This document shows, piece by piece, positions 7,191 to 52,349 of a DNA stretch of 64,000 nucleotides. Source of the DNA: Eledone cirrhosa (taxonomy: Eukaryota). The stretch is from the NCBI GenBank assembly GCA_964016885.1, contig OZ024741.1:189286001-189350000 (forward strand). The letters are read 5' to 3'. Under the pieces are notes generated by a model. The model was not told the DNA's origin and ran no database searches. It saw only the letters and a program-made list of their open reading frames with translations. The number at the start of each line of letters is the position of its first letter. The first letter of the stretch is position 1. The translations under genes and the position numbers were made by a program.

Positions 7191-7317
7191 TTACTAGCAG
7201 AGAAAATGGATGCTAAAGGAGTATTATGCATATATATATATATATATATATTAATAAGGTAATGAATTCTTTTACAATGGAATCAGCTCGAAGGAGGAAA
7301 ATACCCCCTGAGCAGTG

Positions 7318-7776
7318 TATAAATTAATATGTATGTGATGAAACACAGATACCAACACATCTGTATATATATTGCAAAAGAAAAATTTAGCCAGATTGAA
7401 GTATACTAATTATTATACTACAGTTTGTCCATATCGATTTAAAATAATAAATCAACGACAGCGAACTGTATTGCCAAGAGGCCGTGATGTTTAGACACAT
7501 TTAAATTTCAAAATCAAACCTGTTCCGTAGATAAGTTTAAACATATTTGGATCTTAAAGTTTAAACTTATCTACGGAACAGGTTTGATTTTGAAATTTAA
7601 ATGTGTCTAAACATCACGGCCTCTTGGCAATACAGTTCGCTGTCGTTGATTTATTATTTTAAATCGATATGGACAAACTGTAGTATAATAATTAGTATAC
7701 TTCAATCTGGCTAAATTTTTCTTTTGCAATATATATACAGATGTGTTGGTATCTGTGTTTCATCACATACATATTA

Positions 7777-7783
<7 letters not shown>
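7318..7783. repeat. Perfect inverted repeat, 225-bp arms, 16-nt spacer, between (TA)n tracts
   Basis: 7318-7542 is the reverse complement of 7559-7783. Confidence 0.95.
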
Positions 7784-7813
<30 letters not shown>

Positions 7814-8311
7814 ACTCCATTTCAAATTTCATACACACACACATACTGGTTCTTCATATCATTGCTCTCTCTTCTATTCACCACTTTGCTAATGCTACCT
7901 TGAATGAATGGAGACCAAGTTCTGTAGTGAATAGTATTTGAGTTCCAAGAGCCAAGGCAACCTTATTATTGCTAGTGCCTCAATAAAATGCACCCAGTCC
8001 ACTCTGTCAAGTGCTTGATGTTAGGAATTATAGAAATTATTCAAGAATGGACCTTACAAGTGGTACATGGTCCTCTAATTCATCTAAAAGAACAGTAACT
8101 TTCAAACTGACACAGACTGTAACAGCTCATCTAACTCATGCCTACTATATTCATACATGGAAAGGAATAGATCTCTGTTGGTTTTGACGATGAGTGTTTC
8201 AATTGTTTGATTAACACAACAACCTGTTCATGAAATTTCCTGAACATTCAACAAACACTTGTACCCTTAACATAATTCTCAGGGAGATTTAGCATGATAT
8301 AGTATGTGACA

Positions 8312-8597
8312 GTGGAGGCACGTGGCCTAGTGGTAAGGGTGTTGGACTTACGATCATAACATTGTGGGTTTGATTCCTGGGTTGCGTGTTGTGTTCTTGA
8401 ACAAAAGACTTCATTTCACGTTGCTCCAATATACTCAGCTGAAAATGAGTACCAGCAATAGCTGGAGGTTTAACCCTGCGATGGACTGGCGTCCTGTCCA
8501 CAGGAGAGTCTTGTACTCTCAGTCGCTTCATGCCATGAAACCGGGATAAGCACTGGTCAAATGACCCTTCTGGCTTAGGACAGACTTAAGACATTTT
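8312..8597 (+). mobile_element. tRNA-derived SINE with 12-bp TSD
   Basis: A-box-like tggcctagtgg and B-box-like ggtttgattcc; TSD tagtatgtgaca at 8300-8311 and 8598-8609. Confidence 0.85.
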
Positions 8598-9441
8598 TAG
8601 TATGTGACAAGGCTGGCCCTTTGAATTAGAAGTATTGTCCATCCAATATGCCTCCAAACAGTTTTTATCTATTCAGCTTCATTCATGAGAATTGGGTCAA
8701 TCCAAGGTACATCCCAGTGGGATCAAATTTGGGATTTTAGTGATTATGAAATGAACTTCTTAACGATATGGCCATGCTGTACCCTGACACACACACTCAT
8801 GTGTCCTCTAGCATACATAGCCTTTTTTGTTGTAATCATTCAATAAATGTAAAGAACTTACATCTAAATTAACCATTTAGCTGCTTTGCATCTTACAATC
8901 TTTTAAAAATGGATTTCTAGAACTTATAGCATTAATTTCTATTTGTTGCACATTAAATCTTAATGTCTTTTGCTTCTCTGACAACTACCACTTGCTGCTA
9001 TGTGTTGCTAGCATTGCCAAAGTGTGTGTGTGTGTGGGGGGGGGGTTATTTTCTCCTGAATTAGTGTCATCATTTTATGAGAATTTTTAGTATATATATT
9101 TATGTTTTTGTTGTATTGTAGTTGTTGTTGTACTGTTGTTGTTGTTGTGCTGCTGTTGTATTGTTTTTTATGTTATTATTCTTACTGATACTTTTATATT
9201 CTCTATGACAAATAAGACAATATGAGAACAGTTTGTTTACTTTTTGTTTATTTTTCTCTTTCATCTCATCCAGGCATAATTAAATTATTTAACACCTTTT
9301 GTTCATAAGATATATTACTTTATTTGTTTGCCTGTCTTTGTATCTGTGTGTTATTTTCTGTCTTTGTGTATGATTGTGTGTTTCTATCTTTGTGTGTCTC
9401 TGTGTGTCTGTCTGTATGTCATTATGTGTCTTATGTCTTAT

Positions 9442-9827
9442 AGGGCGGTGGATTGGCAGTATCGGTAGAGAGTCGAACGCCATGCTTTGATGCATAATTA
9501 CGGCCCTTGCCATTCTGAGTTCAAATCCCGCCGAGGTTTTAACTTTGCCTTTCATCCTTATGGGGTTGATGAAATAAAGTACCAATAATGTACTGGGTAA
9601 TTGCTGGCCTTGTGCCTAAAGTAGAAACAATTATTAGGGCGGTGGATTGGCAGTATCGGTGGAGGGTCGGATGCCATGCTTTGACGCATAGAGTTACGGC
9701 CCTTGCCATTCTGAGTTCAAATCCCGCCGAGGTTAACTTTGCCTTTCATCCTTACAGGGTCAATAAAATAAAGTACCAGTAATACACTGGGTAATTGCTG
9801 GCCTTGTGCCTAACGTAGAAACAATTA
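9442..9827 (+). mobile_element. Tandem dimer of SINE family 2
   Basis: Two ~190-bp units agggcggtggattggcag...gagttcaaatccc...gcctttcatcc...gtagaaacaatta. Confidence 0.85.
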
Positions 9828-10299
9828 TGTGTTTGTGTATTTTTGAATGTTGTTGTGTCTTTGAATGTCTATGTGTCATTGTGTGTCTGTCTATGTTATT
9901 GTGTCTTTCTGAATCTGTGTGTTATTGTGTGTCTTTGTGTGGGATTGTATGCCTGTGTGTGTTTGTGTAATTGTGTATATGTGTATGTTATTATGTCTGT
10001 CATTGTCTGTCTGTGTGTGTCATTGTGTTTCTGTGTATCTTTCTGTATCTGTGTCATTGAGAATCAATAGTATGTATGTGTGTCTTTGTGTGTCTCTTCT
10101 GTTATCTCTTTGTTTTGATATTTATTTGATTTGTTCTTTCTAAACTAATGTCGATGTTAGTCTTAAAAATAGTCACAAAAGAGTCACTGATGTCAGACTT
10201 AAAAGCAGTCACTCTGTTAATGTTGTGTCTTAAACACAGTCACTCTCTGTTAATATTGATGTAAGTGTTAAAGGCACTCACTCACTCACTCCTTTTCTC

Positions 10300-10337
10300 T
10301 CTCCTCTCTCTTTCTCTCTCCTCTCTCTCTCTCTCTC

Positions 10338-10411
<74 letters not shown>
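10300..10411. repeat. (CT)n microsatellite
   Basis: Seen directly. Confidence 0.95.
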
Positions 10412-10414
<3 letters not shown>

Positions 10415-12100
10415 GTCAGTCTTAAACACAGCACCTCTCTTTTACTGTTGATATCAATCATTAAGACAGTCACTATGTCGATGTGACTTCTTCACCCTGA
10501 TCATGAGATATTCCAGAACAACTAGAAGTGCAAATTAATGCTTTATTCCTCATACAACTTCAATCTGTAATCTCAAAACCTTTCACTGATTTACCTGTGA
10601 TTCTGTTGCTGTAGAATGCACATGATGCCACAAACAATACCTGGAAGATATCAACCACCACAAACTGGGAGACTTTCATCCATTAGTCTGATACTTATAA
10701 AATTACCCTAAAAATGTAAAGGATACCTCTGTATACAAAATACCCTACAAGTTCTCCCATCTCGCAAATACTGAGTGCTCACGTAGTCAGAAATGACGAG
10801 GAAAAGTAGTTTCAATTGACTAGAGTTTAGTATGTTACTTTTGCTCATTTTATTGCTGCTGAAATGATAAAAGGCAAAGTTGACCTCAGTGGGATTTGAA
10901 ATCAAAACATAAAGAGTCAAAACTAAATACTGCTCAGTATTGTAGTTCACTAGGAGACCAAGGATTAAGTTTAAAAGTTGAAGAAAATAAATTCAGTTAA
11001 TCCAGTCTAGACTATTTCAGAACAAATTTTGCTTCATGAGGACAGCAACTGAAACAGTCAAGGTGGGTATTTAAGCAGTGTTTCCCTGAAGCCAGTTATG
11101 AGAGTATATTCTGCTTCTCCAAGTTACGCAGCTGGTAAAATTTCATCCCATTGACATAGAGGTGGGGTGGATTTTTCTCTATCCTCCATTTAATGGAGAA
11201 CCCTGTGCCATTATGTTTGAGGTTCCACATATGGTTCATGAGTTGAGTGGTATGTTATTTTGTCAGAATGTCTGAAGGTTGTTTCATGGTTCAGGAAATG
11301 GCTTTTGAACTTGCTCTCAGACATTCCTACATAAGTTCAGACTTTAGTTTGGTGGTTCTTGTTGGTGAAGATCACTTCTGCTTCATATATAACTGCTAGC
11401 GTGTTGATCCAGGGGCATGTCTCTGGCCTTCTGCTTGAGCATCTGTAAGGTGCAAGGCTTTTACGTTTGTTGGTGATATAGGATTTTATGTTATTAGTAG
11501 AAGAGTAGTCTGTTGTTACTGTATGGCAGTTGAATATTTGTCAGTACTACAGGGAAGTGAAAATCTAGGAGGGCTAGGAATTTTCTACCTACATTAGTCT
11601 TCACACTAAGTGCGAATGGTGGCGCAAACCACAAGACAACTTTATGTCTAAATTTTTTTCTTACTAGATATAGGGTGGTGATCTGGAGAGTAAGTGATTC
11701 TCTCGGAAAAGCCGCTGTTGCTTAGGGCTGAGTTGTAGTAGGGGGCTGCCTTGTCAAATAGCTTTTGCTAGAAGAGAGGTTGGATATACTCTAACTAATG
11801 TTATTAAGGAGATTTTTAAAAGCTATAAGTTAGTCTTTATGAATGTACCTAATTTTTTTACTGGGTTTGTGGAATGGTCTGTATGTGTACACACACACAC
11901 ATGCACACTAACTTTCGCTCACAAAGTATTATACAACCTGGGGCTACAATAGAAGACACTTGCCCAAGATATTGTATTATGGGATTGAATCGGGAAGCAT
12001 GTATTGTTTATTTTTATATTTATTTGTTTTTGTTTGTTTCTTCTTTTTTTATATCTTTGTCTTTTGTGTAGTTTGATAATTTCCCTTGTGTTTTTTACAG

Positions 12101-12259
12101 TGCCAAAGATGAACTGGACTCTACAGAACTGATGTTTCTCTTGACTGGTGGTGTTGGTTTGGAGAACAAACTTTTCAACCCAGATAACACATGGTTGTCT
12201 GACAAATCATGGGATGAAATCTGCAGACTGACAGATATGAAGTCTTTCAAAGGATTTAG
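12101..12259 (+). CDS. DNAH12: Axonemal dynein heavy chain exon (AKDELD..FLLTGGVGLEN..WLSDKSWDEICRL..KGFR)
   Basis: ttttttacag acceptor, gtaatt donor; 159 nt, phase 2/2; dynein heavy-chain motifs. Confidence 0.9.
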
Positions 12260-12548
12260 GTAATTATGATTCATAAAATAACAATAACATTAACATTCAT
12301 AAAGAACTCAAGAATGGCTGGTGGGGATAGGTTATCACACAACCTGCCAAGTAGTCAGGGCTTTATATCTGACATTGGCACTGCACTGTCTCAAGAGAGT
12401 TCAGTCTATTTAGCTATAAGTAGACACATAGTTCACTGTATTCTGAGCAGATCCCTCCATGGGAGTTGAAGCATGTAACTATTGCTTACAGGGCAACTGT
12501 GTTACTAATTACACAAAGTAGCCTTTGAATAATTTTGACTAGTGTAAT

Positions 12549-15500
12549 CATCATCATCACCGTTTTACGTCCGTTCTTCCACGCTAGCATGGGTTAGACG
12601 GGTTGTCCTGTTGTGGGCAGTGTCTGGTCGGCTGACCATGCCTTGCTCATACAGGAACTGATCTGGCTTGATTTCTACAGCTGGATGCCCTTCCTAACAC
12701 CAACCTCATTTACAGTGAGTGCTGGGTGCTTTTTCGTGGCGCCTACACGTCCACTTTACAGTGTGGGCTGGGTGCTTTTTTGCCGTGGCACCTCCACGAC
12801 CACCTTGCGGTGGGGGGAGTGGGGGCATATTGTTTATATGCTTCAGCATGTACCCATGGGAGGTCGGGTACCCTGTATTACTGCGTGACGCCAGAAGTCA
12901 CGGTCGTGTGTCATTGACTTTGAGAGGTGTAGTTGGGTAAGGTCGGCTTTTATCACCTCATCCCAAGTCATCTTGGGTCTCCGCACTCCGCGGTTTCCAT
13001 CAACTTCTAGTGCTCTGCACCTTTTTATGCAGCTGTCATCCTTCATACGCATCACATGTCCATACCAGCGTAACCGCCTCTCCTGCACGCAGCATTTGAT
13101 TCCTCTTATGCTCAGTCTCTCTCTCAATTCCTTTATGCTTTGTCGTTCACGTATATTACTGTTACACATCCATCGGAGCATGCAGGCTTCGTTTCTCTCT
13201 AATCTACGTAAGTCTTCCACCTTCAGCGCCCAGGTCTCACTACCATGCAACATCGCTGTTCGGATACACGCATCATACAGTCTGCCTTTCATTCTGAGGG
13301 AGAAGCCTTTTGCAGCTAGCAGTGGTAGTAGTTCCCTAAACTTCTTCCATCCCGTTCTTACCCTAGTTATTGTACTTTCTGAGCACCCACCTCCGTTGCT
13401 AATTCGGTCACCTAGGTAGCAGAAGCTGTCTACTGTTTCTACAGGGCCCTCCCAGAGATTGGTGGTACTTGTTTCCTGTGGCTGTTTGCTTGCTGTTTCA
13501 GCACAGCTGCTGCATGTGAATCCTACATTCTTAATTAAGCTTCCTGAGATCCCGCTACATCTCTTGTGTACCCATTGTTTGCATTTGGGGCAGAGAATGG
13601 AGTTCCTACCTACACCTTTCCTACATACTGAGCAAGGCCATTTCCCTGAGGGGATCTGGGTTCTGTTTTCTCGTCTACTTATAAGGACCTTAGTCTTTGT
13701 CATGTTGACTTTGAGGCCCTTTCTCTCTAGTCCCTGCTTCCAGGTTTGGAATTTATTCTCTAGTTCTACCATAGATTCAGCTATGAGTGCGAGGTCATCA
13801 GCATACAGGAGTTCCCATGGGCATCCGGTCTTAAACTCCTCCGTTATTGCCTGCAGGACTATGATGAACAGGAGAGGGCTAAGAACAGAGCCCTGGTGGA
13901 CCCCAACCTGTACGCTAAATTCCTCGCTATACTCATTGCCAATCCTAACTTTGCTGACTGCTCCCCTATACATGGCTTGTACCGCTTTCACAAGCCATTC
14001 ATCTACTCCTAGTTTTCTAAGAGCCCACCAGATTACTGCACGTGGAACTCTGTCAAAGGCTTTCTCAAGGTCGACAAATGCCAAGTAGAGTGGCTTACTT
14101 TTAGCTAGGTACTTTTCCTGTAATTGCCTCACAAGGAAGAGGGCATCAGTGGTGCCTTTCCCTGGTACAAACCCAAATTGCATCTCGTCTATATTCACCC
14201 GGTCCCTAATCAGCTGTGCTATAACTCTTTCTGTTACTTTCATGACCTGGTCCATCAACTTTATACCTCTATAGTTTCCTCTATCTAGTGCATCGCCTTT
14301 ACCTTTGTAGCAGTTGACAATGATGCTACTGCACCAATCTTTTGGTATGGCCCCCTCTAGTATTACCTGGTTAACGATACGTGTGGTTATAGTGTGACCT
14401 ACAGACCCAGATGCCTTCAGCATCTCGGCAGCTATACCCGATGGACCGGTTGCCTTCCCTATCTTCATATCTCTGATTGCCTTACTTACTACACTGCCGC
14501 TGACTTGTACTGCTGGTCCCTCTATAGGGTCTACGTGGGGTAGGGTCTCTTCTTCCCATGCATTCTCCTCATTTAGTAATCTATCATAATGACTCTTCCA
14601 TGCATCTTTCTTCTCAGCACTTGTGAGGGCAAGCTCACCTTTATCATTCCGGATACACTTCTCTCCAATGACATCACAACTATCTCTGACACACTGCCTC
14701 GCAATCTTGAATACCTCCTGTTTCTGGTCCTCACGTTGTAAAACATGCTTGAATTTTCTATCCTCTGCTTCCCTCCTAGCTAAGTATACTTGTCGCCTAG
14801 CTTCCCTCTTGGTCTCTATGTAATGTACCCTGCTCCCCCCGTTCTTCCATTCTTTCCATGCCTGTCTCTTGGCCTTGACTGCTTCATCTACCTTATTGTT
14901 CCACCACCAAGTCACTCTCCTCCTGCTTGAGGTCTTACTCCAGCCACAAACCTCATCCGTCGCCTCTAGTAAGTTATTTTTTAGGAACTCCCAGTTCTCT
15001 TCTACGTTAAATATCTCTATCTGTTCTTCTTTACTGTCGTAGGCGTTGAGTAAAATATCTTTAAATCTGTTACTGGTTGAGGGGACTTTCAGCTTCCAGA
15101 TCTTTCTTCTCCAGGTTGGCCTCTGTTTCAGGGCTCGTCTAGTTCTGACCGTGAGGTCGCTGACAACTAAGCTATGTTGGGATGTACATTCCTCACTAGG
15201 GAAGGCTTTTGTGTTTACGACCGTCCATCTGTCACGTCCTCTGATGAGGATAAAATCTAACTGACTAGAGTGCTCCCCTGATCTATAGGTGATCAGGTGG
15301 TTGTCGGGTTTTTTAAAGTTTGTGTTACATATCGACATGTCATTGGCGTCGCAGAATTCTAGAAGTCTGAATCCTTCCTCATTCCTTGTGCCAACTCCAT
15401 GGCCTCCATGTACTCTATTGAAGCCGTCGCAGTGTTTACCTACGTGTCCGTTAAAATCTCCTGCAATGATTAGGAAGTCCTTGTCGTCTGTTAGAGCAGT

Positions 15501-15579
15501 AGTGTGTATTAGGGACTCGTAAAACCTATCCTTAAGTTCGTCTGGCAGCCCCGATTGGGGTGCGTAAGCTGATATTATT
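12549..15579 (-). mobile_element. RTE LINE family A, 5'-truncated, open APE-RT frame
   Basis: ORF 12843-15338 stays open upstream to IISAYAPQ; IAGDFNGH, LYADD; (GAT)n tail; candidate TSD gtgtaat at 12542-48 and 15580-86. Confidence 0.95.
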
Positions 15580-17722: not shown

Positions 17723-17844
17723 ATATATATCTATATGTGTGTATATATATAAGATGTTAAAGATTTGAAAAAAATCACCTATGTTTTTATTTATATATAT
17801 TTTACATGTATAGTACACAACATAAAATTTTTTCACATATACAT

Positions 17845-19993: not shown

Positions 19994-20008
19994 TATATAT
20001 ATATATAT

Positions 20009-20116
20009 AAATGGCTTCTACAGGACTAGAACTGTTTTATTCGAAGGAAATCATCAGGAAAGCTTTCCTGATGATTTCCTTTGAATGAAACAGTTCTAGT
20101 CCTGTAGAAGCCATTT
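20009..20116. repeat. Loopless palindrome, 54-bp arms, centred on AAGCTT
   Basis: Arms are reverse-complementary with 2 mismatches. Confidence 0.95.
20062..20111 (+). ncRNA. Type I hammerhead ribozyme motif
   Basis: gctttc-CTGATGA-stem II (ttc/gaa)-GAAA-cag..ctg-TA-gaagc. Confidence 0.7.
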
Positions 20117-20198
20117 CTATATTAAACATATTCTGCTATGTATTGAGTACTTTACTTACTGTGGTCGACCACGATTGAACCCAGGTTTCACTCACACG

Positions 20199-22120: not shown

Positions 22121-22428
22121 GTGTAGAGGAATGAAGGAAAGAGCATAAAGGATAAAATAAAAATAACAACACGAGAGAGAGTTACCTTGGGAGAGATTTA
22201 ATTGTCCCTATATATTTCGGATTCACTTCCATCAACTGGGATTTTTTTCCGGGGTGGAAGAAAGGTGCCTTTCCGACAGACAACCTTTCCCCCACCCCGG
22301 AAAAAAACCCCAGTTGATGGATGTGAATCCGAAATATATAGGGACAATTAAATCTCTCCCAAGGTAACTCTCTCTCGTGTTGTTATTTTTATTTTATCCT
22401 TTATGCTCTTTCCTTCATTCCTCTACAC
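22121..22428. repeat. Inverted repeat, 146-bp arms, 16-nt spacer, in a (TA)n-flanked cassette extending to ~22603
   Basis: 22121-22266 vs 22283-22428, few mismatches. Confidence 0.95.
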
Positions 22429-23120
22429 GTCTTATACACGCCACGCATCTCAACGTACACCCCACTTACATCTCTCTCTCCACCACCGGATCTTGTTACC
22501 CGGAGATTTACCCATTTGCATTGTCGAGGCTTCCAAACGACTTAAATTAAAGAAATTTACCTTATTATTCCACAATGCTTCAAGCAAACTTCAATACTCT
22601 CTTATATATATATATATATAAATATAAAGATTTACATATACATAAAGTCACAGATATATATATGTTGCAACCGGTCACGTTGTGGCTCAATAAAGAATTA
22701 ATAAATTAAATAATCAGAGCAATATATCATAAATCATGACCTTAGAATTATTAGATAAAATGTATACCATTTCCTCTCCCAATTAGCATAATTAACCATA
22801 CAAAAAATCAATTAGACCAGGCTATAAGAATAAAGGCTCCTATGAAGAAATTTTCGACAAATAACCGAAAGTGGCCTCTTCGCGGTGGCCCCAATAGAGT
22901 ATTTATTCAACATTTCAACAGTATGTAGAAACTGACTAATATACTGTCAACCATACACAATTAGGTGTAAATTCAAACTTAGAAGAAATGTGTACATACC
23001 GTAATTATATATATATTTATTATTTATTATTATTGCTCTACGGTTCTTATATATTTGATATATATTATATTTATCCTTATCGAGCCCGCTTTGGATTTTA
23101 GTCTTCAAATTTATTATTAT

Positions 23121-27322: not shown

Positions 27323-27529
27323 TTATCTCTACAATATTTTGTCAGGTTATTAAAGGTAGACTGAAATAAATTTCTCTCACCAAAGTCGCTATATGTGATA
27401 GAGAGAGAGAGACACACACACATGTGTACATGCACACATATGTGTATATGTATCACATATAGCAACTCTGGTGAAAGAAATTTATTTCTGTCTGCCTTTA
27501 ATATAGCTAGTAGAATATTATAGAGATAA
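27323..27529. repeat. Diverged inverted repeat (~78-bp arms) around a microsatellite spacer
   Basis: 27323-27400 vs 27451-27529. Confidence 0.8.
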
Positions 27530-28189: not shown

Positions 28190-29520
28190 TGCTTCATCTT
28201 TGCAGATGATTGCATCAACCATCACCAACTCCAAACGTTCGTTCATGACCCCTTAGGTGGCTTTTAAGTCCAGCATTAGATTTGCATGGTCTGCAATAAA
28301 TGTGACAGTCAAAAGATGTTCCCTCTTTTGGATTGATTGGCTCAGTTTGTGGGATGTTTTCCTTATGTACCCTCATATGCCTTTTAAGACCAGAGATTGA
28401 TTTGTAGATCTTTTTGCACACCACACATGTTGTCTCACCTAGCATTGGGGGGATAGAGCTGCATACAGTTGGCTTTTTATGTGATTTTAAATGAGTGATG
28501 TACCCAAATTTAGAGAGCAGTGAATGACCACACACCTCACAAATCTAGCTCCCCATGTTCTTATTGAGGTTCATACTGTGGCCTTTTCGAAGCTAACGTT
28601 TAAGTTTTTATGGTCAAGACGTTTCTCTTCAAACATTCTGCAGCCTTCCTTCACATGTCCTGTCCATTTACCCCTCTTTAAAGCAAGCACTTCCCAGTTC
28701 TGAACTTCAAACTGAAGATCTTTAAGGTTGTTTTTTATGCAATCTTTATATCTTTTTCTTGGTTTGTGATGAGAATGTTTCCCAATGTGCAATTGACTGT
28801 AAAATAGTTGTTTTGGGAGTCCTTCCTCATTCATGCACACAACATAGCCTACCCAACGCATTTAAGACGATATGATGGTAGATTCAATGTCCGTGCAACC
28901 AGCATCTATGAGGATTTGTGTGTCAGTTATTTTTTGTTGCCATTTGATGTTTAGGATTCATCTTAAATACTTTTGATTAAAGTGTTCAAACAAATTAAGG
29001 TATTTACAATGCACTGTCCACGTTTCTAAAGAGTACAACAGAGCACCACTCAGAATACAAGCCTTGTACACACTAATCTTCGTCTTGATATTGATGCCAT
29101 GAGCCGCCCACACTCTCTTTCCAAGTTTTCCAAAGTCTGCAGAGACCTTTTGAATGCGCAGGTGTATTTCTGCATCCAGTGAACCATCCCTTGATAATGC
29201 ATTACACATGTAATCAAAAGTGTCAATTACTCCCAGCCTAGTTCCATGCATTATCATATTTGGCTCAATATATTCTTCCCCTGGTGATGAGGTGAACATT
29301 ACCTTAATCTCTTTTTAGATTAATTTTCATGCCAAAGGCATTACAAGAAGCTGCAAAATAATCCAGGATGTGTTACATGTCATCTTGAGAGTGAGCCAGA
29401 ATATCAACATCAACTGCATACAGCAGTTCTCTAATTAATATTTAGAACACCTTGGATTTGAAATTGAACCTTCTTAGGTCAAAGATCCTTCCTGTAGTTC
29501 TAACTTGCAATAGAACACTC
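28190..29520 (-). mobile_element. Decayed RTE (BovB-like) LINE with C-terminal C2H2 zinc fingers
   Basis: LLYAVDVD, LLYSLETW, RWVGYV..LPKQLFY, then three CxxC..H...H motifs at 28215-28545. Confidence 0.8.
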
Positions 29521-41302: not shown

Positions 41303-41527
41303 ATTATACCAGCAATCACCAACTACGTGAGTGAAAAACTGGGCCAAAAGTTCATAGAACCTCCACCATTTGATTTAGCGAAGAGCTATTCTGATTCTAA
41401 CTCTTGTTCACCCCTGATATTTATTTTATCTCCTGGAGCAGACCCTACAATGAGTTTGCTTAAATTTGCTGAAGACAAAGGATTTGGGGGTAAAAGGTTT
41501 CAATCCATCTCCCTTGGACAAGGGCAG
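41303..41527 (+). CDS. DNAH12: Dynein heavy chain exon (IIPAITNY..EPPPFDL..PLIFILSPGADP..SISLGQGQ)
   Basis: ttttgtag acceptor, gtatga donor; 225 nt; AAA6 motifs. Confidence 0.95.
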
Positions 41528-41949
41528 GTATGATTCAAAATTTCCTTTTCAGTTTTTTTTAACAATTTCCTTTTCAATATATATGAGGATATCTGTATCA
41601 TTATCCTCATAATTTAACGTCTACTTTTCATGTGGACATGGGTTGGGCATCATTATGCCTTAAGTCTTATTCAGAGCTACTGCTCTCTGAGACAGGTTGG
41701 AGGACTGTGTCTCACCTGTACATTCCATTTTTGGCATGGGTTCTACAGCTGGATGCTTTTATTGATACCCTCATTTTCTCCACCCATGAAACTCTTTGCT
41801 GACATCAAGCACTGACACTTTCACTTACAATCACTCTTCTTTGTTGTTATTCACCACTCGCTCTCATCGACAATGACACATCTCGATCATAATCCTATTA
41901 TGCTGCTCATGCTGTCTTCTATTCAACTTCCTACCATGTAGTTACCGCT

Positions 41950-42270
41950 GCAGTCTCCTTCCTTAATAGCACATCTGTGGACTAGAAGTTGAAGCATGTT
42001 TTGAGTGAATTTCATCCAACCAGTTGAGTAGCCTTTCTTTGGATGCAATCTAGAATATCTGCATTTGTGGCAGCAGCACCATCCCAAATGTGGGAGCAAC
42101 ACTGTATTGTGGGTCTCACCTGATCCTTCTAGAGAGCTAGTAGTTATTGATGGCTAACATTTTTTCTCTCTCTGATAAAGAAAAGCACACTTTGAGATGC
42201 AGTATTTGCTATGTTGAGGATGTGCATTTGCCTAGAGATAGCATCAGAGATGGTGAAACCTCCATACTCA
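41950..42270 (-). mobile_element. Old CR1/L2/Jockey-group RT C-terminal fragment
   Basis: On -: QVRPTIQCCSHIWDGAA..LDCIQRKA. Confidence 0.55.
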
Positions 42271-42485
42271 AATGTATGCAACAGACCCAAAAGTGGGTTG
42301 TTTGCTATTCATGTTTAAGAATGTGTGTTCCATTTCTATTGAAACAGTTGATTGGCTTGTTTCATGCTTCCATATGGGTTTGGAAACTGATGGGGCACTG
42401 TTACTTTTTCATTGACCTTATTGTCAAACTACATAATTTCTGTTTATTTAATGACTGTTTCTGAATAATGTCATTCTTTCCTCAG

Positions 42486-42665
42486 GGTCCAATTGCTGCG
42501 AAGATGATTGATTTGGGTAAATTAGATGGCCACTGGGTACTATTGCAGAACTGCCATTTAGCTGTGTCTTGGATGAATGCCATGGAAAAAATCTGTGAGG
42601 AATTAAATCCTGAAAATACATCTGCAGATTTCCGACTCTGGTTGACAAGTTATCCATCACCAAAG
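42486..42665 (+). CDS. DNAH12: Dynein heavy chain exon ([34 protein letters not shown])
   Basis: cctcag acceptor, gtaaaa donor; 180 nt. Confidence 0.95.
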
Positions 42666-43100
42666 GTAAAAGAAACAGTTGTGATCTTTCTAGTGTAGTG
42701 TAGTAGTTAGAGTACTGGGATCATGATTGTAAGGGTGTGAGTTCAATTCCTGGACCTGTGGAATGCTCAACCAATTACTCATTAATTTCATGAGCAGGCA
42801 GTTTCATTGATTTAATCAACTAGAGAACTTGTTATCAGAAATGACAAACATCCAACAACAACACCCACTAATGGTACTCACAATAAAACAGAAATATAGA
42901 GAGAATGCTTTAGTTCTTTTTCTTTTTGTATATTGAGGACATAACAACATTTATAGAGCAAGTGCTACTATACAACACACCTAGTACACATTCTAAACTA
43001 GTTTGGGGATAGCTGTAAAAACAAATGTTGTCTGTTGCTCTAATAATTTTGCCAATCCACCGACCTAATAATAATATTGTATTGTTTTTATCTGTGATAG

Positions 43101-43241: not shown

Positions 43242-43314
43242 GTAAGTTTCAAATGTCTGCAGCATTTTCTTATTTATTAAATAGATGTTAAATAGTGGTG
43301 ATAATGATAACAGT

Positions 43315-45783
43315 GGTGGTGATGGTAGTGGTGGCCATGCTGGTGATGGTAGTGGTGGCCATGCTGGTGGTGATGGTAGTGGTGGCCATGCTGGTGGTGA
43401 TGGTAGTGGTGGCCATGCTGGTGATGGTAGTGGTGGCCATGCTGGTGATGGTAGTGGTGGCCATGCTGCTGGTGATGGTAGTGGTGGCCATGTTGGTGGT
43501 GGTAGAGGTGGCCATGCTGGTGGTGGTAGTGGTGGCCATGCTGGTGGTGGTAGTGGTGGCCATGCTGGTGATGGTAGTGGTGGCCATGCTGGTGATGGTA
43601 GTGGTGGCCATGCTGGTGGTGATGGTAGTGGTGGCCATGTTGGTGGTGGTAGAGGTGGCCATGCTGGTGGTGGTAGTGGTGGCCATGCTGGTGGTGGTAG
43701 TGGTGGCCATGCTGGTGATGGTAGTGGTGGCCATGCTGGTGGTGGTAGTGGTGGCCATGCTGGTGGTGGTAGTGGTGGCCATGCTGGTGGTGATGGTAGT
43801 GGTGGCCATGCTGGTGGTGATGGTAGTGGTGGCCATGCTGGTGGTGGTGGTAGTGGTGGCCATGCTGGTGGTGGTGGTAGTGGTGGCCATGCTGGTGGTG
43901 GTGGTAGTGGTGGCCATGCTGGTGATGGTAGTGGTGGCCATGCTGGTGATGGTAGTGGTGGCCATGCTGGTGGTGGTAGTGGTGGCCATGCTGGTGATGG
44001 TAGTGGTGGCCATGCTGGTGGTGGTAGTGGTGGCCATGCTGGTGGTGGTAGTGGTGGCCATGCTGGTGATGGTAGTGGTGGCCATGCTGGTGATGGTAGT
44101 GGTGGCCATGCTGGTGGTGATGGTAGTGGTGGCCATGCTGGTGGTGGTAGTGGTGGCCATGCTGGTGGTGGTAGTGGTGGCCATGCTGGTGGTGATGGTA
44201 GTGGTGGCCATGCTGGTGGTGATGGTAGTGGTGGCCATGCTGGTGGTGGTGGTAGTGGTGGCCATGCTGGTGGTGGTGGTAGTGGTGGCCATGCTGGTGG
44301 TGGTGGTAGTGGTGGCCATGCTGGTGATGGTAGTGGTGGCCATGCTGGTGATGGTAGTGGTGGCCATGCTGGTGGTGATGGTAGTGGTGGCCATGCTGGT
44401 GGTGATGGTAGTGGTGGCCATGCTGCTGGTGATGGTAGTGGTGGCCATGCTGGTGGTGGTAGTGGTGGCCATGCTGGTGGTGGTAGTGGTGGTCATGCTG
44501 GTGATGGTAGTGGTGGCCATGCTGGTGGTGGTGGTAGTGGTGGCCATGCTGGTGGTGATGGTAGTGGTGGCCATGCTGGTGGTGATGGTAGTGGTGGCCA
44601 TGCTGCTGGTGATGGTAGTGGTGGCCATGCTGGTGGTGGTAGTGGTGGCCATGCTGGTGGTGGTAGTGGTGGTCATGCTGGTGATGGTAGTGGTGGCCAT
44701 GCTGGTGGTGATGGTAGTGGTGGCCATGCTGGTGGTGGTAGTGGTGGCCATGCTGGTGGTGGTAGTGGTGGCCATGCTGGTGGTGATGGTAGTGGTGGCC
44801 ATGCTGGTGATGGTAGTGGTGGCCATGCTGGTGGTGATGGTAGTGGTGGCCATGCTGGTGGTGGTAGTGGTGGCCATGCTGGTGGTGATGGTAGTGGTGG
44901 CCATGCTGGTGATGGTAGTGGTGGCCATGCTGGTGGTGATGGTAGTGGTGGCCATGCTGGTGGTGGTAGTGGTGGTCATGCTGGTGATGGTAGTGGTGGC
45001 CATGCTGGTGATGGTAGTGGTGGCCATGCTGGTGGTGGTAGTGGTGGTCATGCTGGTGATGGTAGTGGTGGCCATGCTGGTGGTGATGGTAGTGGTGGCC
45101 ATGCTGGTGGTGGTAGTGGTGGCCATGCTGGTGGTGATGGTAGTGGTGGCCATGCTGGTGATGGTAGTGGTGGCCATGCTGGTGATGGTAGTGGTGGCCA
45201 TGCTGGTGATGGTAGTGGTGGCCATGCTGGTGGTGATGGTAGTGGTGGCCATGCTGGTGGTGGTAGTGGTGGCCATGCTGGTGGTGGTGGTAGTGGTGGC
45301 CATGCTGGTGATGGTAGTGGTGGCCATGCTGGTGATGGTAGTGGTGGCCATGCTGGTGGTGATGGTAGTGGTGGCCATGCTGGTGATGGTAGTGGTGGCC
45401 ATGCTGGTGATGGTAGTGGTGGCCATGCTGGTGATGGTAGTGGTGGCCATGTTGGTGATGGTAGTGGTGGCCATGCTGGTGGTGGTAGTGGTGGCCATGC
45501 TGGTGATGGTAGTGGTGGCCATGCTGGTGATGGTAGTGGTGGCCATGCTGGTGATGGTAGTGGTGGCCATGCTGGTGGTGATGGTAGTGGTGGCCATGCT
45601 GGTGGTGATGGTAGTGGTGGCCATGCTGGTGATGGTAGTGGTGGCCATGCTGGTGATGGTAGTAGTGGTGGCCATGCTGGTGATGGTAGTGGTGGTCATG
45701 CTGGTGGTGATGGTAGTGGTGGCCATGCTGGTGATGGTAGTGGTGGCCATGGTGGTGGTGGTAGTGGTGGCCATGCTGGTGGT
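43315..45783. repeat. Intronic minisatellite, ~100 units of 24/27 bp (catgctggt[ggt]gatggtagtggtggc)
   Basis: Seen directly; unit lengths vary only in whole triplets. Confidence 0.97.
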
Positions 45784-46210
45784 GAAAATGACAGCCACAG
45801 CCGCTACCATACTGCTCTTCGCCACCACTGCAACTGTTGTGGTGTAGAGGGGTATGTTATGGTGGAGGTGGATATGTTATGGTGGAACAATGTATGTCAG
45901 TCTCCAGTAGGCAGACAATGATGTTATGAACAAAAGTCAGCTGGGAGTTTCTGTCAAAGTCGATTACATATTTCACAGAAGGATAAAATGAATGAATAAA
46001 TGCATGAATGAATGAATGATGAGAATAGAATTAAGAATGTATGGATGGTGTCTTTGTTATTTTTTTATAGTTCAGTTTAGTTTAGATTTTAGTTGTTGTT
46101 GTTGTTGTTGTAATACAGTTACAAATATTGATGTGAAAGTGAGTGCATAGTGTGTCATCATTTGTAAATGATATATATATATATGTATATATGTATATAT
46201 GTATATATAT

Positions 46211-46557: not shown

Positions 46558-46635
46558 GTGTGTGTGTGTGAATGAAGTAATTCCGTCGGAAAGGTACAGG
46601 AAAAAAGAGTGCTCTATGTAGGTTACAGACCTTAT

Positions 46636-46863
46636 TAGTTATGTAATAAACAACATAAGATAATTATTTCATTTACCAGTGGTTTCTTGAAAGCAAATAT
46701 ATCTGTTTTCAGTCTTCAGAATGAATAAAACATGGTGTTTTTATTAAATATGGATTTTCAAATCAAACACCATGTTTTATTCATTCTGACGACTGAAAAC
46801 AGATATATCTGCTTTCAAGAAACCACTGGTAAATGAAATAATTATCTTATGTTGTTTATTACA

Positions 46864-46869
<6 letters not shown>
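46636..46869. repeat. Inverted repeat, 105-bp arms, 24-nt spacer, abutting (TA)n
   Basis: 46636-46740 vs 46765-46869. Confidence 0.95.
46780..46837 (+). ncRNA. Type I hammerhead ribozyme motif (mirror copy on - strand in the left arm)
   Basis: ttcatt-CTGACGA-c-tgaaa..tttca-a-GAAA-ccactgg-TA-aatgaa; the left-arm copy has CTGAAGA. Confidence 0.85.
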
Positions 46870-46928
<59 letters not shown>

Positions 46929-47392
46929 GACCTCAACTAAAGTGAGTTACATTCCTTTTTAAACTTCACTCCACCATCTACATTCCACTATCAATATAAC
47001 AATTCCTTTTTCTTCATAGGTTCTTTATAGTAATTCTATTTTTAACACCATTTAACTATTACTTTCAAAGGGTCATGACCTCAACTAAAGTGAGTTATAT
47101 TTCATGTTAACATCATATGGCAAAAAACCATTTGATTGGTTTGTTCTTCAGCTACCTCCGCATAAGGTCATAGAACTCAATTTACTATTGATTTTGAATA
47201 AAATTTTCATTGCTTTTGACAACAGCTGATGACATACATGTAGGTAAATATATTCCTTATTTGATATTTTGTAACTAACCCTACATAGATTGATAACGAA
47301 ATATGTGTACAATGTATTATTATCACCTAGAAACGGTCGTAAAGCAGTGAAATATATTTCTAATGACTTCAATTTTTATTTCATTGTTTCAA

Positions 47393-47458
<66 letters not shown>

Positions 47459-47487
47459 TATTATTTATGTATATAAATATATATATA

Positions 47488-47842
47488 CAGTGTACCCCTG
47501 GCATTTACGGTCCCAACGTTTGCGGTCCCAGTTTTCCTTAGAACCTAACTAATAATTGTATGTGAAAACCACCACATATTCACAGATATTCCGCAGATAA
47601 CTTCCGCGATTTTTTAATGTTGTTTTTTTGTGGCAATATATATTATTTAACACTAAATTTATAGTAACAATATACCATATTTGCCAGCCCATTGGATACC
47701 CCTTCGCATAGACGCTCCTTCTTTATTTTATTATATTTTTACATTTATAGACATTTTTATGGACCATGTCCAATATTCGCAGTTTTTCTCTCTTCCTGGT
47801 TGCTCTAGGAATGTAATCCCCATGAATACCTGGGAACAACTG
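47488..47842. mobile_element. Tigger/pogo-like MITE, degenerate
   Basis: TA|cagtgtacccctggcattt ... gaatacctgggaacaactg|TA imperfect TIRs. Confidence 0.55.
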
Positions 47843-47856
47843 TATAAATATATATA

Positions 47857-48220
47857 TCATCATCATTTTACGTCCGCTTTTCCCTGCTTGCAAGGGTGGG
47901 ACGGGAACTGATTCTGGCTTGATTTCTACAGCTGGATGGCCTTCCTAAAACCAACCTCATTTACAGTGAGTGCTGAGCGCTTTTTTCTTTCCGTGGCGCC
48001 TACACGACCACTTTACAGTGTGGGCTGGGTGCTTTTTTGCTGTGGCACCTCCACGACCACCTTGCAGTCCCTATCATCTCATTTCTACAGCTGAGTAAAC
48101 TGGAGCAATGTGAAATAAAGTGTCTTGCTCAAGGAAACAACACATTACCCGGTCTGAGAATTGAGCTCACAACCTTTCGATTGCAAGACCAATGCTCTAA
48201 CCACTAAGCCATGTGCCTCC
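47857..48220 (-). mobile_element. Full-length SINE family 1
   Basis: Homologous to 46211, with an extra ~40-bp subrepeat. Confidence 0.92.
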
Positions 48221-48750
48221 AATATTTATTTGGTTCTTTTACCGGTTTTGCAGTTCTCCTGCTTTTCAAAAGTAGAGTTGAGATGGAGGGTCTGTGGTTT
48301 TTCTCACATCTGGTTGGTCTCTAAATGTTTTATATGGAAAAAGTGGCTTGAAATGCCAGGTTTTTAGAGAAGTAATTTGATTGGTTGGTCAATAATTATA
48401 ATAAATTTTGCGCCAGTTCACGTTACAAAGTTCTTCAAACAAGGGGGGGGGGGGGGTCACAGGTTGTTTTTTCATATATGAGTGTTTGAATTTCTTTTTA
48501 CTTAAAAAAGAGGGGGCTCACGAAGGCTTTTTTTTAATAAACGTAATTTTATTGGTTATTAATGAAATTATGGCTGTCACGTGAACAAGTTTTCATTAAA
48601 TTTCCGCGCCCTTATTTGGAAATCCATTCTGTAGCCTTTTTAGAGAATTTTATGATAAGTAAAAGATAATGGTCAAGAGAAATGGGATGGGAGAATTGTT
48701 CTGGTTCATTGAATATGGTTAGTTCGCTGGGGTGTCAGAATTCAGATTAC

Positions 48751-48911
48751 CGGAGGTGGTAAGAGCAGACCTCAGATCACTGAAACTCGCCGAGGAGATG
48801 ATGAAGCACCGTGACAAGAGGAGAGTTGCCGTGCTGAATAGGGCCCATCCAACCCTTGCAAGCAGGGAAAAGCAGACGTAAAATGATGTCAACGATGATG
48901 ATGATGATGAT
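48751..48911 (+). mobile_element. RTE family C short 3' fragment
   Basis: EVVRADLRSLKL.. plus tail. Confidence 0.8.
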
Positions 48912-49566
48912 ATATGTGTGTATGTGAGATTGAGTGAGAGAAAAATGTGTGTTTTGTACACTCATGCATACAACCACATATGCATGTATATATGATATGT
49001 GTATGATAAAGATATATATATATTTTTACTAATTTCAGCAAGTACTATGTCCAGTACACTCTCTACTAAAATGATTGGTGTTAGTAAAGGCTTTTAGCCA
49101 TAGAAATTTAATTTAAAGCCAATTTAATTTTGGATATATATATGGCCCCTTGATTGTAGAGCTAATTCAGTTGAATGAACTCAGCTGCCATTTCTAGCTG
49201 TCGATAATCCTATTCAAGCCACTGGGATGACATGGTGCGGTGTCTGTAGTTTTTATAAAATGCAACACGTGGTTCGAGTCATTTACAGATTTGTATTTGA
49301 TGTGTAAACACAGATGGTTGGATCTTCTCTTTTGGTGACCATCCAGGATTTGTCTGCTGTGATTTACTGGTTAATTGGTGAAATATATTTTTTATTTAAA
49401 GAAATATATACAAAGGAGATTAATCATTTTAAAAGGTATCTATATTTGAAGTTATAGTTTAATTAGTTACCTACCTAGCTATGTGTGTTTACACACTTTA
49501 CAAATTATTCCCTGAGATTGTTTCATGTGTTTATTTTATATATATATGTGTATATATATATATATA

Positions 49567-50164
49567 TCATCATCATCATCATCATCATCAACGTTTAACG
49601 TCCGTGTTCCACGCTTGCATGGGTTTGGACGGGGGTAGTCCCACTTGAGGCAAGAGTGATTGTCTTGCTCGCATAGGACTGTCTGACAGGTTTTCTACAG
49701 TTGGATGCCCTTCCTAACACCAACCACATTTACAGTGTGGGTCTGGGAGGTTTTTACCGTGTTGCCTACACGGCCACATTACAGCGTGGACTGTGTGTTT
49801 TTTTTGTTGTGACACCTACACGATCTCATTTGTTTCGGCCTGGATGGCGCGGCACCAACATAACTTTACATAGAACGGGGTGGTGTGGATGGGGTGGGGG
49901 TGGTCGTGGTGGGACGGGGGTGTATTTTGTTAGAGATGCCTACTGGCTGGAGTAGGTTTTACTATATATTTAGGTAAGGCGGGTCTTCTCTGTTACTGAG
50001 TACCGCCAAAGGTCTCGGTCCAGTGACATTGTCTTGGAGAGGTGTAAGTGTGTGATGTCGGAGTTTATCAGCTCGTCCCAGGTTTTTCTAGGTCTGCCTA
50101 TTCCGTGACTACCGTCTATCTTTATTGCCCTGCACTTTGTTATACAGCTATCGACTTTCATGCG

Positions 50165-50168
<4 letters not shown>
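49567..50168 (-). mobile_element. RTE family B 3' fragment
   Basis: Near-identical to 50332-50927; (TA)n on both sides. Confidence 0.93.
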
Positions 50169-50204
<36 letters not shown>

Positions 50205-50331
50205 CTTTGTTCTTTTTCACTAATATTTCTACTCTGCTTATACGCATAGAGCTTAACTAGCTACCATCACATATTTGGTAGGTCAGACGTGATCATCGCG
50301 ATTCACATACGACCTACCATATATCTTGCTT

Positions 50332-52082
50332 ATCATCATCATCATCATCAACGTTTAACGTCCGTGTTCCACGCTTGCATGGGTTTGGACGGGGGTAGTC
50401 CCACTTGAGGCAAGAGTGATTGTCTTGCTCGCATAGGACTGTCTGGCAGGTTTTCTACAGTTGGATGCCCTTCCTAACACCAACCACATTTACAGTGTGG
50501 GTCTGGGAGGTTTTTACCGTGTTGCCTACACGGCCACATTACAGCGTGGACTGTGTGTTTTTTTGTCGTGACACCTACACGATCTCATTTGTTTCGGCCT
50601 CGATGGCGCGGCACCAACATAACTTTACATAGAACGGGGTGGTGTGGTTCGGGTGGGGGTGGGGGTGGTGGGACGGGGTGTATTTTGTTAGAGATGCCTA
50701 CTGGCTGGAGTAGGTTTTACTATATATTTAGGTAAGGCGGGTCTTCTCTGTTACTGAGTACCGCCAAAGGTCTCGGTCCAGTGACATTGTCTTGGAGAGG
50801 TGTAAGTGTGTGATGTCGGAGTTTATCAGCTCGTCCCAGGTTTTTCTAGGTCTGCCTATTCCGTGACTACCGTCTATCTTTATTGCCCTGCACTTTGTTA
50901 TACAGCTATCGACTTTCATGCGCATCACGTGTCCATACCAACGTAGCCTTCTCTCGAGTAAACAACATCTGATCCCTCTTATCTCTAATTTATTCCTTAG
51001 TTCGTTTATGCTTTGCCGTTCACGTATATTACTGTTACACATCCAGCGGAGCATGCAAGCTTCGTTCCTCTCTAGTCTGCGTATATCCTCTGCACACAAT
51101 GCCCAGGTCTCACTGCCATGCAGCATTGCTGTTCGTATGCAGGCATCGTACAACCTGCCTTTCATTTTTAGTGAGAACCCTTTAGCAGCTAATAGTGGTA
51201 TAAGCTCTCTGAACTTTTTCCAACCAGTTCTGACTCTAGCTACAGTACTTTCAGAGCACCCTCCCCCACTGCTGATTTTATCGCCCAGGTAACGGAAGCT
51301 GTCCACTATTTCTATAGAACCCTCTGCGCAATTGAAAGAGCTAGTAGTTTGTGGGCACTTGCTGCTACTTATTGCACCAGAGCACCGGCCACATGTAAAA
51401 TCTATGTTCTTAGTTAGCTTACCTGTGATCCCACTACATCTTTTATGCACCCATACTTTGCATTTAGGACATAAAATGGAGTTTCTACCTACGCCTTTCC
51501 TACACACCGAGCACGACCATTTCCCAGAAGGGACCGCCGCCTTGTTTTCTTTCCTACAAACTAGTACTTTGGTCTTAGCCAGGTTAATTTTAAGTCCTTT
51601 TGACTCTAGGCCGTGCTTCCATGTTTGGAATTTCTTCTCTAGCTCGGCCATTGATTCCGCTATGAGTGTCAGGTCGTCTGCGTATAGGAGTTCCCATGGG
51701 CAGCCTGTCTTGAACTCCTCTGTTATAGCCTGAAGGGCAATAATAAATAGTAGTGGACTGAGAACAGAGCCCTGATGGACGCCGACTTTTACGCTAAACT
51801 CTTCACTATATTCGTTGTTAATTCTAACCTTGCTGACTGTTTCTTTATACATGGCTTGTATAGCCCTCACAAGCCATTCGTCAACGCCTAGTTTTCTAAG
51901 AGCCCACCAGATAATGGAGCGGGGGACTCTGTCGAAGGCTTTCTCCAAGTCGACAAAAGCTAAGTAGAGGGGTTTACCTTTAGCTAGGTACTTCTCCTGT
52001 AGTTGTCGTACTATGAAAAGAGCGTCTGTGGTACTTTTGCCTGACACAAACCCGAACTGCATTTCATCTAGGTCAATTCTCT

Positions 52083-52085
<3 letters not shown>
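50332..52085 (-). mobile_element. RTE family B, 5'-truncated, open RT frame
   Basis: 444-aa ORF MQFGF..LYADD..TEKTRLT*. Confidence 0.95.
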
Positions 52086-52146
<61 letters not shown>

Positions 52147-52221
52147 GGAGGAAATATGGTAAGGAACCAGGTGGACCATAATGCACCAAAGTACTCAATA
52201 CTTAGGGTAGTAGAGTGGGTA

Positions 52222-52346
52222 ATAGGAACGAGTAGGACCCCGACGGCTGAGCTCAAGCCGTTTCGACGGCTAATTCTGGACTAAAAGTCAGTCCAGAATT
52301 AGCCGTCGAAATGGCTTGAGCTCAGCCGTCGGGTCCTACTCGTTCC

Positions 52347-52349
<3 letters not shown>
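52222..52349. repeat. GC-rich inverted repeat (~60-bp arms, 7-nt loop) between (TA)n tracts, carrying the 3' half of a hammerhead
   Basis: 52222-52282 vs 52290-52349; GAAA-(c/t)ggc..gccg-TC. Confidence 0.9.

What the first reader, a model, noticed from the sequence alone, without database searches (positions are those of the whole stretch)
7252..52349. Family-diverse fold-back cassettes at (TA)n carrying outward-facing hammerhead motifs
Seen: five inverted repeats with no evident similarity between their arms (7318-7783, 20009-20116, 22121-22428, 46636-46869, 52222-52349) share one plan: near-perfect arms, a 0-24 nt spacer, one arm extended by a unique 65-175 nt tail, and an adjacent (TA)n. 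A hammerhead or hammerhead-shaped motif reads outward from the centre (canonical in two, half in one, variant in two). Established: Penelope-like elements carry hammerheads in their pLTRs and often leave inverted pLTRs. Inference: this is a dense, diverse population of short non-coding ribozyme hairpin insertions formed by fold-back during Penelope reverse transcription. Because each is symmetric, the host pre-mRNA receives a sense motif and a long dsRNA stem whatever the insertion orientation.
Basis: partly seen in the sequence, partly recalled or inferred. Interest (0 to 1): 0.85.

Follow-up and report, generated by a model that had tools for sequence, protein, structure and literature searches.

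The report
Head-to-head Penelope ends in TA repeats
The five hairpins are back-to-back pairs of short end-pieces from five abundant repeat families, four traced to Penelope-type jumping genes and one a non-coding repeat that likely borrows their enzyme; they were likely made when both cut DNA strands were extended on RNA and the two copies joined, a known layout whose details hint at how these elements insert.

Summary
All five inverted repeats are real, and strand-switch joints of two families occur in raw short reads. Each repeat belongs to a different high-copy family (about 900-4,300 search candidates). Three families are 3' ends (pLTRs) of Penelope-like elements with RT plus C-terminal GIY-YIG ORFs, and a fourth is linked on thinner evidence. 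The fifth is a non-coding 517-nt tandem retrozyme. Four families carry a type I hammerhead: complete in the window for two, cut to the 3' half in two. The fifth has only a hammerhead-like core. Inverted pLTRs, tails, (TA)n targets and opposite-strand hammerhead pairs are published Penelope features. 'Fold-back' fits poorly. In 24 of 74 two-armed copies the tail-less arm holds sequence missing from the tailed arm, and two insertions join two different families head-to-head. This favours two separately primed cDNAs. Both arms tend to stop at one family-specific site, not at the ribozyme cut site; that site is possibly the transcript start. The cassettes likely lie in introns of a dynein heavy-chain gene, where the hairpin is predicted to mask the ribozyme. 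Known kind, with modest mechanistic interest.

The parts
7250..7542 (-). F1 tailed arm: 3' part of a 517-nt non-coding tandem unit; tail 7250-7317 ends in (TA)n
   Evidence: tandem arrays of the unit in L153
7539..7783 (+). F1 tail-less arm, including the spacer; 4-nt microhomology (7539-7542) with the other arm; carries the 3' half of the hammerhead (predicted cut after 7607), catalytic 5' core absent
   Evidence: (L438)
20003..20062 (-). F2 tail-less inverted arm; GAAA box mutated
20063..20187 (+). F2 tailed arm with complete type I hammerhead (core 20068-20074, GAAA 20087-20090, predicted cut after 20106); probable 3' end of a Hydra-type PLE
22121..22266 (-). F3 inverted arm, starting 175 nt inside the element end (usual starts are 39 and 58 nt)
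22269..22604 (+). F3 pLTR with tail of an autonomous RT plus GIY-YIG PLE; hammerhead-like core 22314-22334 without stem I
46571..46762 (-). F4 tailed arm with complete type I hammerhead (core starts at 46719); 3' end of a Hydra-type PLE with a UTR of about 2 kb
46765..46869 (+). F4 tail-less arm with complete hammerhead (core 46786-46792, GAAA 46819-46822, predicted cut after 46831)
52142..52285 (-). F5 tailed arm: pLTR end of a Hydra-clade PLE; 3' half of a U3-A8 type hammerhead, truncated in the stem II loop
52290..52349 (+). F5 tail-less arm, starting 80 nt inside the element end (20 of 23 inverted arms start here)
41303..42695 (+). Context: two open frames with dynein heavy chain D6 P-loop exons (host gene)
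56637..56870 (+). Context: open frame with a dynein heavy chain AAA-lid exon (host gene)

Best explanation
Each cassette is a head-to-head pair of 5'-truncated 3' ends from a high-copy Penelope-type family, likely formed when a Penelope RT/GIY-YIG enzyme cut a (TA)n tract, extended both DNA ends on element RNA and had the two cDNAs joined. Shown: the family membership, the ORF linkage, the two fixed outer ends (one with the tail, one without) and the independent inner ends. Inferred: one strand is primed at the distal initiation site (tailed arm) and the other at the proximal site (tail-less arm); the two cDNA 3' ends are joined by microhomology or a few added bases; uncleaved RNA is the template. 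More speculative (about even odds): most copies are short because priming occurs at the 5' pLTR and the RT runs off the transcript start, which sets the hairpin centre. The hammerheads are passengers of the pLTR and are predicted to be masked in host transcripts.
For: ORF linkage: F3 has an RT plus GIY-YIG ORF upstream in the same sense in 4 of 7 long stretches, with pLTR-ORF-pLTR in L164 and inverted pLTR-ORF-pLTR in L165. F5 in 2 of 2, with pLTR-ORF-pLTR in L257. F4 in 3 of 7 direct, plus inverted UTR-and-ORF arms in L315 and L319. F2 has a GIY-YIG end upstream in 4 of 20 loci. Among 136 loci picked by the tail alone, 88 have an adjoining inverted arm: F1 14/19, F2 20/30, F3 15/30, F4 16/30, F5 23/27. 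Inverted arms start at preferred sites, e.g. -80 in 20/23 for F5 and -59 in 11/20 for F2. Non-nested arms: 24 of 74 in F2-F5; the window's F1 copy is itself non-nested. L471 joins a short tailed F4 arm to a kilobase-long arm reaching into the RT. Two-family head-to-head joins without TA at the junction: L161 (F1 plus an F3-sister RT-EN element) and L470 (F5 plus another Hydra-type element with its own hammerhead end). Direct arms ending within 2 nt of the hammerhead cut: 2/30, 2/30 and 0/27; arms passing it: 25/30, 18/30 and 23/27. Shared stop zones: F5 15/27 direct and 14/23 inverted; F2 13/30 and 10/20; F4 5/30 and 5/16; F3 6/30 and 5/15. F5 depth falls about 20-fold there in contigs of X1. 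In vitro, a Penelope enzyme extends both strands, starts at two sites that define the tail, and uses uncleaved RNA (PMC11167929).
Against: 34 of 74 two-armed copies have arms ending within 10 nt of each other and 16 have the tailed arm longer, and both groups also fit fold-back. Later deletion across a palindrome centre could create non-nested arms. Only 2 two-family chimeras were verified, out of 8 loci with a nearby inverted PLE ORF among 240 screened by that criterion, and nested insertion could mimic them. Samples are the top 30 hits by identity, not random draws, and the stop zones were drawn after seeing the data. The depth drop at the F3 stop zone is slight, and in RAD runs the F5 drop coincides with a site where most reads end. 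Initiator-like words at the stop zones are only suggestive: good in F5, weak in F2 and F4, and a DPE-like word at +27 in F3. The F2 ORF link crosses simple repeats and other insertions. No autonomous partner was found for F1.
Confidence: 0.7

Rival explanations
1. Fold-back: one cDNA primed at the tail loops back on itself and is copied up to the first TA-like site; asymmetric copies arise later by deletion.
For: 50 of 74 two-armed copies are nested or symmetric. The window's F2-F5 copies are compatible. Several junctions use the hammerhead's own palindromes as microhomology. The inverted starts lie at TA-rich points.
Against: 24 of 74 copies are non-nested; L471 has a kilobase-long tail-side-independent arm; L161 and L470 join two families. 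In the young F1 family (98-99% identity) the tail-less arm can hold seven extra units (L153).
Confidence: 0.15
2. Same two-primer origin, but the shared stop zones are RT stall or slippage points at RNA structure or A/U runs, not transcript starts.
For: The stop zones lie in or just upstream of the hammerhead fold; F5 stops fall in an A/U-rich loop, and several junctions carry added A/T runs. No RNA data support a start site.
Against: Stops are not at the 3' foot of the strongest helices, F3 has a sharp stop without a hammerhead, and F5 and F3 show promoter-like words at the stop. Penelope has an internal promoter in its repeat (PMC2377424).
Confidence: 0.3
3. The hairpins are assembly or library artefacts, or DNA-transposon-like fold-back elements (MITEs).
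For: F1 arms are identical over 225 nt; palindromes are a known assembly hazard (my knowledge).
Against: Arms differ at 2-4 sites in the other four; centres differ from copy to copy; strand-switch joints occur in raw reads; the arms continue into RT-GIY-YIG ORFs elsewhere.
Confidence: 0.03
4. The cassettes are retained because they act on the host transcript, by cleavage or as dsRNA for editing or small RNAs.
For: They lie inside a likely dynein heavy-chain transcription unit and would form 60-225 bp stems.
Against: Thousands of like copies are scattered genome-wide; the hammerhead fold is disfavoured by 77-80 kcal/mol; cores decay among copies (F2: 61 of 94 intact; F4: 101 of 119 among the listed variants fit CTGANGA). 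No conservation test across species was possible.
Confidence: 0.07

Closest known systems
EN+ Penelope-like elements with inverted 5'-truncated copy and tail (Craig et al. 2021, PMC8557442; D. virilis Penelope, PMC2377424)
   Same: RT with C-terminal GIY-YIG, pLTRs, an inverted truncated copy at the 5' end, a tail at one end only, hammerhead in the pLTR, (TA)n targets.
   Different: Tails here are 39-80 nt rather than 30-40. Most copies are reduced to two arms of 60-300 nt with no ORF, and the inner ends cluster at one site.
Hydra clade PLEs (PMC8557442)
   Same: The F5 ORF has DKT, an RWR version of RWK, and a CxCX5C linker; hammerhead present; (TA)n target. F4 and F2 ORF pieces are 32-49% identical to it.
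   Different: No tree was built. The F5 endonuclease region has Cys/His residues I did not align against the clade. Cephalopod Hydra-clade families were not seen in the passages read.
Opposite-strand pairs of minimal hammerheads in Schistosoma (Cervera and de la Pena 2014, PMC4209133)
   Same: Dual hammerheads 100-700 bp apart on opposite strands, ascribed to truncated PLEs; U3-A8 core variant as in F5.
   Different: Motifs here have a real helix III (long in F1 and F5); the paper gives no junction analysis in the parts read.
Metazoan non-LTR retrozymes (PMC7229834; bioRxiv 10.64898/2026.07.22.740005)
   Same: F1: non-coding AT-rich tandem unit with one type I hammerhead per unit, dispersed arrays, PLE-like ends.
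   Different: Unit is 517 nt with a 12-bp helix III; arrays are head-to-head; RNA circles and cleavage are untested.
Anolis Poseidon PAc in vitro (Frangieh et al. 2024, PMC11167929)
   Same: Two initiation sites defining the tail, both strands extended, AT-rich targets, uncleaved RNA as template.
   Different: That work did not address inverted products in the text read; different clade.

Membership tests
EN+ Penelope-like element (F3, F4, F5; F2) | Single ORF with PLE-type RT and C-terminal GIY-YIG upstream of the pLTR | tested here: met
   F3: RVT_1 E 7e-10, GIY-YIG weak (E 0.003), homologues carry both domains. F5 and F4: by motifs and tblastn only, Pfam gave no hit for the F5 ORF. F2: only the EN end, 4 of 20 loci.
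EN+ Penelope-like element | pLTR in direct or inverted orientation flanking the ORF | tested here: met
   L164 and L257 direct; L165 and L315 inverted. Not shown for F2.
EN+ Penelope-like element | Tail extension on one end only | tested here: met
   Preferred inverted starts at -68 (F1), -59 (F2), -39/-58 (F3), about -65 (F4), -80 (F5).
EN+ Penelope-like element | RT phylogeny within PLE clades | not tested
   No named reference set was fetched; assignment rests on motifs from PMC8557442.
Hydra clade (F5) | DKT, RWK-like motif, CxCX5C linker, hammerhead, (TA)n | tested here: met
   L257 translation and flanks.
Hydra clade (F5) | Absence of the CCHH motif in the endonuclease | not tested
   Not aligned to reference endonucleases.
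Type I hammerhead (F1, F2, F4, F5 families) | Core boxes, three helices, NUH site | tested here: met
   core intact in 28 of 29 F1 units; F5 varies as T/C-TGA-N-AA. F2 and F4 have an unpaired 10.1-11.1 position. Rfam gave no hammerhead hit in the window at E up to 1.
Type I hammerhead (F3) | CUGANGA-type core and stem I | tested here: not met
   No descriptor hit in the joined F3 reference or the sister element; only TTGAT, a 4-bp hairpin and GAAA.
Type I hammerhead | Self-cleavage | not testable with these tools
   Needs in vitro assay.
Non-LTR retrozyme (F1) | Non-coding tandem units each with a type I hammerhead | tested here: met
   Six full units in tandem plus flanking partial units in L153.
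Non-LTR retrozyme (F1) | Monomeric linear and circular RNA in vivo | not testable with these tools
   No RNA holder listed.

The most novel reading that the evidence does not exclude
These palindromes are a genomic record of the Penelope insertion reaction: a dimeric enzyme primes both target strands on two separate RNAs, which can come from different families, and most products run off the transcript start inside the pLTR. In F5 that start lies inside the hammerhead, so only the read-through 3' copy of the pLTR can form the whole ribozyme. The head-to-head layout also silences every inserted ribozyme in either orientation, which would make such copies tolerable in introns.
Probability: 0.4. 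Interest if true: 0.6.

Novelty: new member of a known kind. Interest (0 to 1): 0.35.

Why it matters
How Penelope-like elements form their tandem and inverted insertions is named as an open problem (PMC8557442), and the one in vitro study leaves the later steps open (PMC11167929). Thousands of short copies from several families in one genome make this countable: nested against non-nested arms, two-family joins, and stop sites against transcript starts. The cassettes themselves are ordinary repeat debris with no sign of a host function. They matter as a source of intronic dsRNA only if RNA data show editing or small RNAs.

Tried and rejected
Rfam scan of the window: no hammerhead family, only microRNA-shaped hairpin matches below threshold. 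A strict descriptor missed F1, F4 and F5 and was relaxed. My first reading of F4 and F1 as degenerate motifs was wrong; each uses a different GAAA or a long helix III. The PLE RT fragment next to F1 in the window (about 7190-5800, minus strand) is a separate 5'-truncated element across a (TA)n run, not F1's ORF. The GIY-YIG upstream of F4 in L258 belongs to another element. L151 and L152 were fetched on the wrong side and refetched. Hairpin queries are biased towards hairpins, so counts come from tail-only queries. Before counting I dropped 14 of 150 tail loci (11 re-hits of the same F1 insertions, 3 F5 segmental duplicates) and reclassed 4 inverted calls that fell in simple or internal repeats. 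No autonomous partner of F1 among fetched loci; two diverged relatives at 71-84%. No RNA holder listed for the F1 unit. Hammerhead cleavage as the source of the 5' ends was rejected. Paper searches: (Penelope, inverted, pLTR, transcription start, palindromic) returned 0 papers. I saw no paper stating two-RNA priming or run-off, but the library lacks most subscription papers and I opened no supplements.
Full report
Observation. The five inverted repeats are in the window as described. An exhaustive scan for fold-backs with spacers up to 60 nt found these five and one weaker one at 27348-27503. The window is G000:C2:189286001-189350000 of a 3.0-Gb animal genome, probably a cephalopod: one named homologue of the F3 protein is from Octopus bimaculoides at 52% identity, which is a hint only. 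Dynein heavy-chain exons lie on the + strand at about 41.4, 42.5 and 56.7 kb, and AAA_9 exons lie 90-110 kb upstream on the same strand. All five cassettes are therefore likely intronic in one gene; this is inferred from domain order.

Each cassette is a family. Searches of the own genome gave 1527 (F1), 4322 (F2), 2214 (F3), 2657 (F4) and 2092 (F5) candidates, 40 scored each. Tail-only queries gave 932-1924. These are rough figures, not copy numbers. The hairpin centres differ between copies, so each palindrome arose at its own insertion. Raw Illumina reads of same-species runs show opposite-strand joints on single linear copies of F5 and F3, which argues against an assembly artefact at family level.

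Parents. Read from arm to tail, F3 follows an RT plus GIY-YIG ORF in 4 of 7 long stretches, with direct and inverted pLTR forms. F5 follows an ORF in 2 of 2; L257 is pLTR-ORF-pLTR and shows DKT, RWR and a CxCX5C linker, the Hydra-clade marks given in PMC8557442. F4 follows a related ORF across a UTR of about 2 kb in 3 of 7 stretches, and two more have it inverted. F2 has a related endonuclease end upstream in 4 of 20 loci, across simple repeats, so this link is weaker. F1 is a 517-nt unit without an ORF, in arrays of 98-99% identity. I found no autonomous partner for it.

Hammerheads. A type I descriptor, relaxed after a stricter version missed three families, finds complete motifs in F1, F2, F4 and F5 and none in F3. 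In the window only F2 (+ arm) and F4 (both arms) are complete; F1 and F5 are cut to their 3' halves. Shuffled-arm palindromes hit in 1-5 of 2000. F5 uses the U3-A8 variant described in PMC4209133. Rfam found no hammerhead. In the + strand pre-mRNA the hairpin beats the hammerhead fold by 77 (F2) and 80 (F4) kcal/mol. Because the motifs face outward, the antisense arm comes first whichever strand is read, so host cleavage is unlikely.

Mechanism. Among 136 loci chosen by the tail alone (14 of 150 dropped as duplicates, 4 inverted calls reclassed), 88 have an adjoining inverted arm. Both outer ends are element 3' ends, one with and one without the tail. A single folding cDNA must give an inverted arm nested in the tailed arm. 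In F2-F5, 24 of 74 are not nested, 16 have the tailed arm longer and 34 end within 10 nt; four of the 24 start far from the usual site. Later deletion can blur this test. Stronger cases are L471, a short tailed arm joined to a long arm reaching the RT; L153, seven units on the tail-less side; and two joins of different families without TA at the junction, L161 and L470. These two came from 8 loci with a nearby inverted PLE ORF among 240 screened. The pattern fits the in vitro behaviour of the Anolis enzyme: both strands extended, two start sites defining the tail, uncleaved RNA used (PMC11167929). Direct arms seldom end at the ribozyme cut (4 of 87) and mostly pass it (66 of 87). Both arms tend to stop in one zone per family, most sharply in F5 (15/27 and 14/23 within 19 nt) and not evidently in F1. 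Initiator-like words lie there in F5 and F3, and F3 has a DPE-like word at +27, resembling the internal Penelope promoter (PMC2377424). Run-off from the transcript start is my preferred reading at about even odds; stalling is the rival. The zones were chosen after seeing the data, samples are top-identity hits, and no RNA data were available.

Comparison. Inverted truncated copies, one-sided tails, hammerheads in pLTRs and (TA)n targets are standard (PMC8557442). Opposite-strand hammerhead pairs 100-700 bp apart were reported in 2014 (PMC4209133). F1 fits the non-LTR retrozymes (PMC7229834; bioRxiv 10.64898/2026.07.22.740005). What I saw of each paper: PMC8557442, PMC2377424 and PMC7229834 as term passages; PMC11167929 parts 1-2 of 4; PMC4209133 parts 1-2 of 4; the bioRxiv preprint parts 1-2 of 5; no supplements, which may hold cephalopod family lists. 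Earlier AI notes of this scan give the same head-to-head and run-off reading for other windows. I had written mine down before seeing them, and they are not independent support.

Verdict. Real, Penelope-derived and of a known kind. The value lies in testable clues to the insertion mechanism. Interest 0.35.

Noticed in passing
window 43285-45921 (+): A 2.6-kb array of 21-27-nt units that is open in several frames (878 aa Gly/His-rich on +, His-rich on -), between dynein exons; a minisatellite or a nested low-complexity gene.
   Followed up: no
window 37002 (+): Another complete type I hammerhead with a long stem II, outside the five cassettes.
   Followed up: no
window about 7190-5200 (-): A 5'-truncated, broken PLE of a further family (RT, GIY-YIG, UTR) directly beyond the (TA)n run at F1's tail.
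   Followed up: partly
window 20123-20187, 46571-46635, 52142-52221: The tails of the three Hydra-type families share a GAGYACY motif 45-55 nt from the end; F1 and F3 lack it. Candidate enzyme-binding signal.
   Followed up: partly
loci L010-L468 (flanks): At least eight further hammerhead-bearing repeat families appear in the flanks of fetched loci, several with palindromic helix III; they cluster at (TA)n runs.
   Followed up: no
window 28218-28544 (-): A C2H2 zinc-finger open frame antisense to the dynein gene.
   Followed up: no
   Followed up: no
window 11180-11767 (-): Decayed fragment of a Hydra-type PLE ORF.
   Followed up: no
L256/L363-L366 (contig C20): Four near-identical long F5 copies with shared flanks, apparently segmental duplicates.
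   Followed up: partly
L472:3935-4674: An F5 copy whose short inverted arm continues directly into an inverted endonuclease of a third PLE family, a possible template switch.
   Followed up: partly
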